DNA of 64,000 nt from a virus (taxonomy: Duplodnaviria; Caudoviricetes), in the IMG/VR virus record IMGVR_UViG_3300025121_000014, positions 160,001 through 224,000 of that record; one strand, written 5' to 3'. Below are positions 653-46,183 of the stretch, one piece after another; position 1 is the first letter of the stretch, and each line of letters starts with the position of its first letter. The position numbers and the translations under genes were made by a program. The notes under the pieces were generated by a model that searched no databases, had not been told where the DNA came from, and was given only the letters and a program-made list of their open reading frames with translations.

Positions 653-1174
653 ATGCCATTTTCTATTATTTCTGCTATGGATTCCAAACGAGGCATAGGC
701 AAAAACAATTCTATTCCCTGGCATATTCCAGAAGATTTTCAATGGTTTAAAAAACAAACTACAAATAAAATAGTTATAATGGGTGATACTACATATTATT
801 CATTGCCTGAAAAAACAAGACCGTTACCAAATAGAATAAATATTGTTTTAACTCTTGATGACGAGAAAGTAAAACCATTAGAAGACGAAGGTTGCATTGT
901 TATGCGTTCAGTTAAAGAAGTTTATGATAAATATAAAAATGAAGATTGTTTTATAATTGGAGGTGGAAAAATATATTTAGAATTTTTAAGTTTATCTGAT
1001 AAAATGTATTTAACTTTTATAAAAGGAAATTTTGAATGTGATACATTTTTCCCTTTATTTGATAAAAAAATTTGGAAAATTATTTATAGAACACAATATG
1101 GTGTTAGCAAAAAAGGATATAAATATTCTTTTAATATAATAGAAAGAATGAACTACACATTAGCTAAAGACTAA
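653..1174 (+). CDS. folA: Dihydrofolate reductase
   Basis: IGKNNSIPWHIPEDFQWFK, IMGDTTYYSLP..RPLPNRINIVLT, FIIGGGKIY and CDTFFP are classic DHFR motifs. Confidence 0.97.
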   Translation: MPFSIISAMDSKRGIGKNNSIPWHIPEDFQWFKKQTTNKIVIMGDTTYYSLPEKTRPLPNRINIVLTLDDEKVKPLEDEGCIVMRSVKEVYDKYKNEDCFIIGGGKIYLEFLSLSDKMYLTFIKGNFECDTFFPLFDKKIWKIIYRTQYGVSKKGYKYSFNIIERMNYTLAKD

Positions 1175-1399
1175 ATATGTTTCTTTCAAAATAATTTGAA
1201 AAACTCTTTTTACAGAGGCTCGTTCATAAAAGCAAGTGTTAGATGTTAAAAAACATATTTAAACTAACAAGACTTGTTAAAAACAAGTCACTAGTCAAAA
1301 ACGGACTAGATCGTTTTTAAAAACTTAACGTGTTTAACCTCAATGATTTTACTTGATCTAGGTTTGTAGATCAAAACTATTAAATCATTTCAAAGAACT
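1172..1399 (-). ncRNA. Candidate structured non-coding RNA (unassigned family)
   Basis: Intergenic, no ORF. Perfect helices 1172-1182/1251-1261, 1184-1190/1195-1201, 1271-1278/1282-1289, 1291-1296/1304-1309, 1342-1349/1382-1389 and 1353-1360/1367-1374. Two crossing pairings (1237-1242/1264-1269; 1297-1303/1312-1318). boxA-like AGTTCTTTGAAA and an ATATATA motif lie upstream on the minus strand. Confidence 0.55.
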
Positions 1400-1554
1400 T
1401 TTATCTAATTACTATATATATTAAATAATTAAAGACTGTTTTTGTCAAATTCATCCACTAAACTGAAGATTTGGTGGTTTTCTTTGACGGGATCATATAA
1501 AATTAGAAGATATATGAAACTATATGTTTCATAAAAAAAATAATAAAATAAAAA

Positions 1555-45562: not shown

Positions 45563-46183
45563 ATGAAAAAAGTATCTGTAATAATGGCTAGTTATCTCGG
45601 GTTCTACCCAGGAAGAAATACAAATCCAGATAAAAAATTTATAAGAGCAGTTAATAGTTTTTTAAAACAAACATATGAAAATAAAGAACTTGTAATAATA
45701 GCCGATGGTTGTAAGCAAACAGAAGAAATATATGAAAAATTTTTTAAACAATATGATAATATAAAATTAGTTTCTATACCTAAACAACAAATATATTCAG
45801 GAGAATGTAGAAATGCTGGATTAAACATAGCTACTGGTGAAATAATATCTTATTTAGATAACGATGATGTATTAGGTAAAAAACATTTAGAAACAATTAT
45901 GGAACAATTTACCGATGATGTTGATTTAGTTTATTACGATGATTATCTTGTTATGAGTAAAGATTTTAAAACTTTACAAAAAAGAATAGTTGAAACAAGA
46001 TATGGATCAATAGGAACTTCATCTATTACTCATAAAAATGTAGATTGGATCAGATGGCGTACTGGTTATGGACACGATTGGTTATTTGTGCAAGAATGTA
46101 TTATGAAAGGTATGCAGTTTAAAAAGTTAGAAAAAACACCAGCTTATTTAGTGGCACATTACGGTGGAGGTGGTGATTTTTAA
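45563..46183 (+). CDS. GT2 glycosyltransferase
   Basis: VSVIMASY, IIADG, RNAGL, YLDNDD and GHDW. Confidence 0.88.
   Translation: MKKVSVIMASYLGFYPGRNTNPDKKFIRAVNSFLKQTYENKELVIIADGCKQTEEIYEKFFKQYDNIKLVSIPKQQIYSGECRNAGLNIATGEIISYLDNDDVLGKKHLETIMEQFTDDVDLVYYDDYLVMSKDFKTLQKRIVETRYGSIGTSSITHKNVDWIRWRTGYGHDWLFVQECIMKGMQFKKLEKTPAYLVAHYGGGGDF

What the first reader, a model, noticed from the sequence alone, without database searches (positions are those of the whole stretch)
1172..1424. Highly structured intergenic RNA candidate with two pseudoknots, its own promoter motif and a boxA-like leader
A stretch of about 230 nt with no ORF folds into at least six perfect helices of 6-11 bp. Two further pairings cross them: loop AAAAACG 1297-1303 with CGTTTTT 1312-1318 (H-type pseudoknot), and TGTTAG 1237-1242 with CTAACA 1264-1269. 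C-A juxtapositions at two helix ends become G-U on the minus strand. Upstream on that strand lie the genome's ATATATA motif (1411-1424) and AGTTCTTTGAAA (1388-1399), which resembles the boxA antitermination element of stable-RNA operons. It does not resemble tRNA or tmRNA. The inference is a dedicated, possibly unnamed phage ncRNA.
Basis: partly seen in the sequence, partly recalled or inferred. Interest (0 to 1): 0.72.

Follow-up and report, generated by a model that had tools for sequence, protein, structure and literature searches.

The report
Protein-free transposon carrying guide-RNA gene
The hairpin-rich spacer after the phage's folA gene is a 349-base protein-free jumping element (IS200/IS605 type) that landed in the end of folA and very probably makes a guide RNA for a TnpB nuclease encoded elsewhere; this kind of element is known, here in a huge-phage version with its own promoter and a conserved leader hairpin.

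Summary
Window 1148-1400 folds far better than shuffles on both strands (z -3.9 minus, -3.1 plus), and no other intergenic gap in the window does.

It is not a free-standing phage ncRNA. Window 1148-1496, read on the minus strand, is an ORF-less IS200/IS605-type element:
- It lies 3' of TTTAT.
- It has matching hairpins near both ends and finishes in GTAGTTCAT.
- Related phages have an uninterrupted folA. The displaced folA tail (IKLEDI*) sits at 1497-1517.

Evidence for an RNA product, all from relatives:
- The last 88 nt align with the 3' end of tnpB genes in many huge-phage contigs.
- A promoter-like TTTAATATATA block precedes the RNA module, and precedes tnpB in full-length elements.

The likeliest product is a minus-strand omega-RNA-like guide RNA used in trans by TnpB.

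The boxA idea is unsupported. There is no Rfam match.

This scan had already read the same stretch, and two sister elements upstream in this genome, in the same way. That lead redirected my work, and I tested it independently.

The parts
1497..1501 (-). Target or transposon-adjacent motif, TTTAT (ATAAA on the + strand), directly 5' of the element's left end.
   Evidence: Sequence. TTTAT lies 9-12 nt before AAAGAAAAC in 24 of 25 unique left ends of the family.
1444..1496 (-). Left end (LE). It contains AAAGAAAAC, then the hairpin CCACCAAA-TCTTCAG-TTTAGTGG (1455-1477), then GATGAATTTGAC.
   Evidence: About 90% identical over the front 170 nt to element X1 of related phage record G001. The same hairpin type stands at the LE of tnpB elements and of a tnpA+tnpB element. 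The stem shows compensatory changes between copies (CCACC/AGTGG, CCATT/AATGG, CCACG/CGTGG).
1412..1425 (-). Promoter-like block TTTAATATATATAG.
   Evidence: It sits at a fixed 49-nt spacing from AAAGAAAACC in C, X1 and a third copy. The gapped pattern built on that spacing retrieved family members in 12 viral loci, and about 25 distinct left ends once the metagenome loci were added. The block precedes the tnpB ATG in full elements. TATATATA-type motifs lie within 70 nt upstream of 16 of 80 window genes, against a background of 0.088 per 70 nt. Promoter activity is inferred.
1390..1398 (-).
   Evidence: Nearly invariant in 20 ORF-less elements (A3). Its function is unknown.
1342..1389 (-). 5' stem-loop of the RNA module. 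Lower stem AATGATTT/AAATCATT, upper stem TTGATCTA/TAGATCAA, followed by GTAAAATCA.
   Evidence: Covariation in 20 elements: 97.6% of cells paired, 54 cells changed on both sides against 15.2 in shuffles, slid controls 27-46% paired.
1291..1318 (-). Hairpin H5 (CTAGTC/GACTAG). Its loop CGUUUUU pairs with the upstream AAAAACG to give an H-type pseudoknot.
   Evidence: H5 has 3 pairs changed on both sides. The pseudoknot helix is paired in 5 of 5 C-type elements, with ACUG/CAGU in four of them replaced by AACG/CGUU in the window.
1237..1289 (-). Hairpins H4 (GACTTGTT/AACAAGTC, 1271-1289) and H3 (outer TGTTAG/CTAACA, inner ATGTT/AACAT, 1237-1269).
   Evidence: Colinear with L217, L299, L307 and L178. 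The pairs are kept. Read by eye on a shifted register (GUUAG/CUAAC against AUGAG/CUCAU), the H3 outer stem is compensated in L178. On the tool's alignment that helix scored 61% paired with no change on both sides.
1148..1235 (-). 3' scaffold and right end (RE), in order: TTGCTTTTATGAACGAGCC, hairpin Pb (1204-1217), hairpin Pc (1184-1201), GAAAC, the RE hairpin (1155-1180), and the terminal GTAGTTCAT (1148-1156).
   Evidence: Aligns with the 3' end of about 405-aa TnpB genes and of other ORF-less elements, 17 sequences in all (A2). Covariation: 92.3% of cells paired, 15 pairs changed on both sides, slid controls 37-50%. ATGAAC (1222-1227) is complementary to the terminal GTTCAT (1148-1153) but invariant in all 17, so that pairing is untested.
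1128..1147 (-). Predicted guide segment, the flank 3' of the RE: TCTTTCTATTATATTAAAAG, antisense to folA codons.
   Evidence: Inferred from how TnpB omega-RNAs are built (Meers et al. 2023). There is no second match in the window beyond chance.
653..1174 (+). folA (DHFR, 173 aa). Its last 8 codons (MNYTLAKD, 1148-1171) and its stop codon are supplied by the antisense of the element's RE.
   Evidence: (Pfam DHFR_1).
1497..1517 (+). Displaced original folA 3' end, ATA AAA TTA GAA GAT ATA TGA = IKLEDI*.
   Evidence: Joining 1147 to 1497 keeps the frame and gives ...NIIER-IKLEDI*. The closest homologues end ...ERKKLTEI...KRKKITEI and ...EKVKPEDI. The DNA is colinear with the uninterrupted folA of L320.
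1455..1485 (+). The LE hairpin read on the + strand, followed by TTTTCTTTGA. This is an intrinsic-terminator-like site that would end the folA transcript.
   Evidence: 4 terminator-like sites in 500-2600 against 0.2 expected. Its function is inferred.

Best explanation
Window 1148-1496, read on the minus strand, is a non-autonomous, protein-free IS200/IS605-family element of the PATE-like kind. It inserted 3' of a TTTAT in the last codons of the phage folA gene.

Between its two hairpin-bearing ends it carries a small RNA gene, made of these parts in order:
- a phage-type TATATATA promoter block
- a conserved GTTCTTTGA start region
- a covarying 5' stem-loop
- a pseudoknotted hairpin and two further hairpins
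- an 88-nt 3' scaffold homologous to the 3' end of tnpB genes, which is where TnpB's omega-RNA is encoded

The transcript should run across the right end into the flank. The 16-20 nt after GTAGTTCAT would then serve as a guide. A TnpB made elsewhere would use that guide to cut TTTAT-flanked folA alleles lacking the element, which favours keeping and copying the element.

Shown here: the insertion, the family membership, the homology to tnpB 3' ends, and the structure conservation.
Inferred: transcription from this promoter, use by TnpB in trans, and the guide function.

My odds are about 0.93 for the transposon identity and about 0.6 for a working guide RNA in this genome.
For: (1) Insertion.
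- In the closest folA relatives the next gene follows folA within 1-2 nt, with no 380-nt spacer.
- Window 1100-1147 plus 1497-1517 is colinear with L320's intact folA end. The joined reading frame ends IKLEDI*, like the homologues' KKLTEI, KKITEI and VKPEDI.

(2) Ends.
- TTTAT precedes the left end, as in 24 of 25 unique left ends of the family.
- The LE and RE hairpins resemble each other: 8-9 bp stems with TCTTCAG or TCTTTAG loops.
- The element ends in GTAGTTCAT, as in the tnpB elements of G001, L213, L257 and L308.
- A tnpA(Y1)+tnpB element with the same kind of ends sits in a complete 640-kb phage genome.

(3) RNA homology.
- 1148-1235 aligns with the 3' end of TnpB genes. Pfam finds HTH_OrfB_IS605, OrfB_IS605 and TNB in three of them.
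- The aligned stretch starts directly after their RuvC-III motif, DRDLNSAINI.

(4) Structure.
- Covariation supports the three 3' hairpins, the 5' stem-loop, and the full C-type RNA including the pseudoknot.
- Slid-partner controls collapse to 27-50% paired.

(5) Strand.
- tnpB runs LE to RE in full elements.
- 11 G-U cells in the 5' stem-loop fall on this strand.
- The exact span folds to -56.0 kcal/mol on minus and -49.4 on plus.

(6) Precedent. PATE-like ORF-less IS605 elements that 'often encode omega-RNAs' acted on in trans by TnpB are described by Meers et al. 2023 (10.1101/2023.03.14.532601).
Against: - No expression data.
- No tnpB or tnpA lies in the 64-kb window. The rest of the genome could not be read. 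Earlier notes of this scan report tnpB copies upstream, but I could not check them.
- Only the last 88 nt match tnpB elements. The roughly 165-nt upstream part (5' stem-loop, pseudoknot, H4, H3) has no sequence match in tnpB-bearing loci. It is therefore unproven that a TnpB accepts this scaffold.
- This copy is slightly degenerate. The LE stem has a C-A mismatch, the RE stem has a bulged T and one G-U, and the TTTAT-to-AAAGAAAAC spacing is 11 nt where 10 or 11 is usual.
- The C-type alignment has only five sequences, and the tested structure was derived from this copy, which inflates the paired percentage.
- No Rfam family matches.
- Seven or more contigs from different samples are 100% identical, so they add no information.
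Confidence: 0.75

Rival explanations
1. Dead relic. The element is a decaying transposon remnant. Its hairpins are inherited from active ancestors, and in this phage it makes no functional RNA. Its only present effects would be the altered folA C-terminus and a longer 3' UTR.
For: - The LE stem has a mismatch and the RE stem a bulge.
- No tnpB or tnpA lies in the window.
- It is the single copy in the window.
- Covariation shows selection in the family, not in this copy.
Against: - The promoter block, the 5' motif, all helices and the terminal motifs are intact.
- The front 170 nt are about 90% identical to another copy in a related phage. The RE is almost identical to that of L308's tnpB element. 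Both point to a recent origin.
- The RE defect is a G-U pair plus one bulge, which RNA tolerates.
Confidence: 0.2
2. Plus-strand function. The region acts mainly as the structured 3' UTR of folA. The reversed LE hairpin plus its T-run (1455-1485) would terminate and stabilise the folA message.
For: - folA's stop codon lies inside the element, so the folA mRNA must enter it.
- The plus strand also folds well (z -3.98 and -3.14).
- A terminator-like site is at 1455-1485.
Against: - Hairpins made of palindromes fold on either strand.
- G-U placement in the family, and the direction of tnpB and the promoter, favour the minus strand.
- Family members lie in both orientations and in many gene contexts, so the structure is not tied to a host gene's 3' end.
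Confidence: 0.1
3. A dedicated phage stable RNA with a boxA-type antitermination leader, unrelated to mobile DNA.
For: - The minus-strand promoter-like motif and a conserved leader motif, GTTCTTTGA.
- The motif matches 8 of 12 positions of the boxA consensus GCUCUUUAACAA, as I recall that consensus.
Against: - The stretch has transposon ends, a target motif, an empty site in relatives, and homology to tnpB 3' ends.
- There is no long operon downstream that would need antitermination.
- An 8-of-12 match in a 22% GC genome is weak.
Confidence: 0.03

Closest known systems
PATE-like ORF-less IS200/IS605 elements encoding omega-RNAs (Geobacillus stearothermophilus; Meers et al. 2023, 10.1101/2023.03.14.532601)
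   Same: - No protein gene.
- LE and RE with subterminal hairpins like those of tnpB-bearing relatives.
- The RNA scaffold next to the RE is retained.
- It would need TnpB, and TnpA for movement, supplied in trans.
   Different: - Found in very AT-rich (22% GC) huge phages, not a bacterial chromosome.
- Carries its own fixed-position promoter block and a roughly 165-nt upstream RNA module (5' stem-loop, pseudoknot, two hairpins) with no sequence counterpart in the tnpB-bearing elements.
- The same 5' leader is joined to three different 3' scaffolds.
TnpB omega-RNA of IS605-family elements such as ISDra2 (OMEGA systems)
   Same: - Lies at the 3' end of the element on the tnpB strand.
- Multi-hairpin scaffold with a pseudoknot. 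That known omega-RNAs have one is from my own knowledge of the published TnpB structures.
- The guide would be the flank after the RE.
- The target motif equals the transposon's insertion motif.
   Different: - Not embedded in a tnpB reading frame.
- No sequence or Rfam-level similarity to described omega-RNAs.
- The target motif here is TTTAT. By my recollection ISDra2 uses TTGAT.
IS608 / ISDra2, the IS200/IS605 prototypes with a Y1 transposase
   Same: - No terminal inverted repeats and no target duplication.
- Insertion 3' of a short specific motif.
- Similar imperfect hairpins near both ends.
- A tnpA+tnpB version exists in a related phage, with tnpA facing away from tnpB.
   Different: This copy has neither gene, and its motifs are TTTAT and ...GTTCAT.
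boxA antitermination element of rRNA operons and lambda nut sites
   Same: A U-rich 9-12 nt motif shortly after a promoter, GUUCUUUGAAA here against GCUCUUUAACA.
   Different: - No boxB or boxC.
- No long transcription unit.
- The motif travels with a transposon family.
- The likeness is within what chance gives in AT-rich DNA.

Membership tests
IS200/IS605 transposon family (non-autonomous, PATE-like) | Subterminal imperfect hairpins at both ends that resemble each other, and no terminal inverted repeats. | tested here: met
   The LE hairpin is CCACCAAA-TCTTCAG-TTTAGTGG (1455-1477). The RE hairpin has the loop TCTTTAG (1155-1180). All 7 pairs of the RE stem change on both sides across 17 sequences.
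IS200/IS605 transposon family (non-autonomous, PATE-like) | Insertion directly 3' of a short conserved motif, without target-site duplication. | tested here: met
   TTTAT precedes 24 of 25 unique left ends. The window's flanks join seamlessly onto the intact folA of L320, with no duplicated bases.
IS200/IS605 transposon family (non-autonomous, PATE-like) | Presence/absence polymorphism, meaning an empty site in relatives. | tested here: met
   folA is followed within 1-2 nt by the next gene in L319, L320 and two further contigs. The folA C-terminal tails match the displaced 1497-1517.
IS200/IS605 transposon family (non-autonomous, PATE-like) | Full-length relatives with the same ends that encode the Y1 transposase TnpA and/or TnpB. 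| tested here: met
   - tnpB elements: G001 (PF07282, 1e-21), L160, L213, and L298-L313.
- A tnpA (PF01797, 9e-35) plus tnpB element with LE and RE of this type is in G004.
- None lies in the window itself.
TnpB omega-RNA (OMEGA guide RNA) | Encoded at the RE on the tnpB strand, and homologous to the 3' end of tnpB elements. | tested here: met
   88 nt (1148-1235) align with 10 or more tnpB 3' ends, starting right after the RuvC-III codons.
TnpB omega-RNA (OMEGA guide RNA) | Conserved secondary structure supported by compensatory changes. | tested here: met
   See the parts list. Every slid-partner control falls below 50% paired.
TnpB omega-RNA (OMEGA guide RNA) | The whole scaffold corresponds to that of the cognate TnpB's own omega-RNA. 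| tested here: inconclusive
   The upstream roughly 165 nt have no sequence match in tnpB loci (nhmmer). Structural equivalence could not be judged.
TnpB omega-RNA (OMEGA guide RNA) | A cognate TnpB in the same genome. | not testable with these tools
   - None in the 64-kb window, and no whole genome is held.
- In relative G005, a C-type ORF-less element and a tnpB of the matching subfamily co-occur. That tnpB is read in two overlapping pieces, the second with two internal TAA stops.
TnpB omega-RNA (OMEGA guide RNA) | Transcribed, bound by TnpB, and guiding cleavage next to the target motif. | not testable with these tools
boxA antitermination leader | Match to the boxA consensus in the leader of a long stable-RNA or delayed-early operon, with partner elements. 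| tested here: not met
   8 of 12 identity, with the consensus taken from memory. No downstream operon. The motif is a family-specific GTTCTTTGA.
tRNA, tmRNA or any Rfam family | A covariance-model or ARAGORN match. | tested here: not met
   ARAGORN found nothing. The best Rfam E-value was 1.0, far below the gathering score. Six related loci also gave no match at the elements.

The most novel reading that the evidence does not exclude
The protein-free elements may be more than decayed transposons. They could be a standing set of promoter-driven guide-RNA genes, with a portable leader (promoter, GTTCTTTGA, covarying stem-loop) recombined onto at least three different TnpB scaffolds. Huge phages would use them with a few trans-encoded TnpB proteins, or nuclease-dead TnpB-like proteins, as a gene drive against co-infecting relatives that lack the insertions, or to regulate the genes they sit in (here folA, which the guide overlaps in antisense).
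Probability: 0.15. Interest if true: 0.75.

Novelty: new variant of a known kind. Interest (0 to 1): 0.45.

Why it matters
- It replaces an 'unnamed phage ncRNA' with a testable identity: a natural, self-promoted, stand-alone guide-RNA cassette for TnpB, in a lineage of huge groundwater phages.
- The family offers compact natural omega-RNA expression units and an undescribed conserved leader. That leader might stabilise or process the RNA.
- It gives a clean example of an IS200/IS605 insertion rewriting the C-terminus of a phage metabolic gene.
- For annotation, such hairpin-dense gaps in AT-rich megaphages should be checked for TTTAT...GTAGTTCAT borders before a new RNA class is proposed.

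Tried and rejected
- Rfam scans of the region at E up to 10, and of six related loci at E up to 0.1, found nothing at the elements. ARAGORN found nothing.
- Near-identical contigs from other samples were 100% identical, so they were useless for covariation.
- A first 14-mer scan of viral contigs gave only chance hits.
- I tried to walk upstream in the window's own genome with exact-protein look-ups. Only contigs of 10 kb or less were served, and two look-ups failed because of a wrong start or frame. The sister elements and tnpB copies reported by earlier notes could therefore not be read.
- The two IMG/VR records from a sister sample (G001, G002) are related phages, not this genome.
- Distant DHFR loci (31-58% identity) could not settle the folA C-terminus. 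The 73-80% homologues could.
- nhmmer with the middle part of the RNA found no counterpart in tnpB-bearing loci and no further C-type copies. A gapped pattern scan of IMG/VR returned only the three already known.
- The predicted guide has no second target in the window beyond chance.
- I rejected a group I intron, an origin of replication and a recoded ORF once the transposon ends and the empty site were established.

Full report
**Observation.** The finding lies in the 380-nt gap between folA (653-1174, +) and the next ORF (1555-2088, +) of a 22% GC phage window.

Six perfect helices of 6-8 bp are present. No ORF of 30 aa or more lies in 1175-1441.

Folding is well beyond dinucleotide shuffles:
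- 1172-1424 gives z -3.98 on the plus strand and -2.70 on the minus strand.
- The whole gap gives -4.25 and -3.55. The 14 other intergenic gaps tested in the window give -2.4 to +1.8, most of them near zero.

ARAGORN and Rfam find nothing. One detail is wrong: TGTTAG/CTAACA is a nested outer stem, not a crossing pairing.

**How the reading changed.** Contigs from other samples that carry the same genes are 100% identical across the gap, so they carry no covariation signal.

A look-up of this scan's earlier notes showed that the same stretch, 1148-1496, had been read in an overlapping window as 'mini-element C'. That note placed it in a family of ORF-less IS200/IS605 elements, together with two sister elements 25-29 kb upstream. 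I treated this as a lead and tested it on independent sequence.

**The element's borders in the window.** Read on the minus strand:
- TTTAT (1501-1497) is followed after 11 nt by AAAGAAAAC.
- Next comes the hairpin CCACCAAA-TCTTCAG-TTTAGTGG, then GATGAATTTGAC.
- 49 nt further on lies TTTAATATATATAG (1425-1412).
- The far end is a hairpin followed by GTAGTTCAT (1156-1148), inside the last codons of folA.

**Family.** An 18-mer from the 5' stem-loop hit one IMG/VR contig, G001 (84 kb, 22.6% GC). Its element X1 shares about 90% identity with window 1502-1333 and ends in the same AATGTGTAGTTCAT.

G001 also holds a tnpB element with the same kind of ends (398-aa TnpB; PF07282, E 1e-21) and a 50-bp LE/RE fusion.

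I then scanned with a gapped pattern built on the fixed 49-nt LE-to-promoter spacing. It retrieved family members in 12 viral loci, and about 25 distinct left ends once the metagenome loci were added. Many come from contigs of 100-640 kb.

- TTTAT lies 9-12 nt before AAAGAAAAC in 24 of 25 unique left ends.
- In L160 the promoter block is followed by a tnpB ORF.
- In the complete 640-kb genome G004, an element with this LE and an RE ending GGTTCAT carries a Y1 tnpA (PF01797, E 9e-35) facing away from a tnpB.

These results meet the defining features of IS200/IS605.

**Proof of insertion.** The closest DHFR homologues (73-80% identity) end ...ERKKLTEI...KRKKITEI and ...EKVKPEDI. The window protein ends ...ERMNYTLAKD.

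Joining window 1147 to 1497 keeps the frame and yields ...ER-IKLEDI* with its stop at 1515-1517. The DNA is colinear with the uninterrupted folA 3' end of L320. In those relatives the next gene starts 1-2 nt after folA.

So 1148-1496 (349 bp) is an insertion without target duplication. The antisense of the RE now supplies folA's last eight codons and its stop.

**The RNA module.** The 88 nt next to the RE begin TTGCTTTTATGAACGAGCC. A degenerate scan for that motif found 19 viral loci.

- In ten of them the motif directly follows the RuvC-III codons (IDRDLNSAINI...) of a tnpB gene or tnpB fragment. Five of these ORFs are full length (402-411 aa) and the rest are shorter or cut. Pfam finds HTH_OrfB_IS605, OrfB_IS605 and TNB in the three I scanned.
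- Two others (L299, L307) are ORF-less elements like the window's, as are L178 and L217, found.

In the 17-sequence alignment, three hairpins are supported. 92.3% of cells are paired, against 74.0% in shuffles and 37-50% with slid partners. 15 pairs change on both sides.

RNAalifold also pairs ATGAAC with the terminal GTTCAT. Both are invariant, so this helix is untested.

The 5' stem-loop, aligned over 20 ORF-less elements, is 97.6% paired. It has 54 double-change cells against 15.2 in shuffles and at most 8 in slid controls. It has 11 G-U cells on this strand.

Five elements share the window's whole RNA architecture: the window copy, L217, L299, L307 and L178. Across 57 pairs, 89.7% of cells pair and 19 pairs change on both sides, against 8.5 in shuffles.

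The four relatives have ACUG/CAGU where the window has AACG/CGUU, which is two compensatory pairs but a single evolutionary event.

With the correct borders (1148-1400), the minus strand folds to -56.0 kcal/mol (z -3.89) and the plus strand to -49.4 (z -3.14).

**Promoter and leader.** The TATATATA-type motif lies within 70 nt upstream of 16 of 80 window genes, against a background of 0.088 per 70 nt. In full elements it lies about 25-35 nt before the tnpB start. Promoter activity is therefore inferred, not shown.

AGTTCTTTGAAA belongs to a family-wide GTTCTTTGA motif. Nothing supports boxA.

**Mechanism.**
- Shown: mobile-element identity, insertion, homology of the 3' scaffold to tnpB 3' ends, and structural selection in the family on the LE-to-RE strand.
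- Inferred from published work on TnpB and on PATE-like elements: the minus-strand transcript reads across the RE, the flank TCTTTCTATTATATTAAAAG serves as guide, and a trans-encoded TnpB cuts TTTAT-flanked empty folA sites, which promotes retention or homing.
- By-product: on the plus strand the reversed LE hairpin plus its T-run looks like a terminator for folA.

**Limits.**
- No tnpB or tnpA in the window, and the rest of the genome is not readable here.
- The upstream roughly 165 nt of the RNA have no sequence counterpart in tnpB loci.
- Only five C-type sequences are available.
- This copy has small defects in both end hairpins.

**Novelty.** ORF-less IS605 elements carrying omega-RNAs are described, and a full-text search lists papers that mention TnpB alongside megaphages (titles and term counts only, not read).

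What seems undescribed is the phage-borne form, with its own fixed promoter block and a covarying leader joined to at least three different scaffolds. There is no Rfam model for it.

The scan had already reached the same kind of reading for two sister elements of this genome.

Noticed in passing
L143:7449-7827 (minus strand; record G001 = IMGVR_UViG_3300025121_000035): The related huge-phage contig encodes a tmRNA (Rfam RF00023, 60.4 bits, E 3.6e-21), about 1.2 kb from its ORF-less element.
   Followed up: no
G001:C1:40753-41189 (L156): A left-end hairpin plus the TTTAATATATA block stands in front of a 62-aa lysine-rich ORF. A terminator and a second left end in inverted orientation follow. 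The LE/promoter module seems to be reused as an ordinary gene promoter, or this is a cargo-carrying element.
   Followed up: no
G001:C1:~61096-61144 (L157): A 50-bp mini-element, preceded by TTTAT, that fuses a left-end start (AAAGAAAACC...) to a right-end finish (...GTGTAGTTCAT) around one hairpin. It lies 0.5 kb from element X1.
   Followed up: partly
L298:820-2043, L304:1150-2379, L308:1533-2744 and relatives: The TnpB subfamily whose 3' end matches the window element has a single Cys where the G001 TnpB has CxxC...CxxC, so the zinc finger of the TNB domain appears to be lost. Its ORF runs through the RNA hairpins into the RE hairpin.
   Followed up: partly
5' modules in L159, L166, L187, L257, L271, L299: Several RNA modules begin TAGTTCTT or GTTCAT, like a right-end terminus, and are preceded by a small AACTA-GAAA-TAGTT hairpin. 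The shared leader may itself descend from a nested right end.
   Followed up: no
G005:C1:28815-30021; G003:C1:300335-300699: In relatives, the matching tnpB (G005) is read in two overlapping pieces, the second with two internal TAA stops, and a Y1 tnpA (G003) carries internal stops. Many copies in these phages look damaged.
   Followed up: no
window:1555-2088 compared with L319:1012-1945: In relative L319, a homologue of the window's ORF 1555-2088 is separated from folA by an extra 116-aa gene. In L320 different small genes follow folA. This neighbourhood is variable.
   Followed up: no
window:16335-17074 and 45829-46147: Two other long gaps between my crude ORF calls, 740 nt (GC 0.18) and 319 nt (GC 0.28, the highest of any gap). 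The second shows no excess folding (z about -1). The first was not folded.
   Followed up: no
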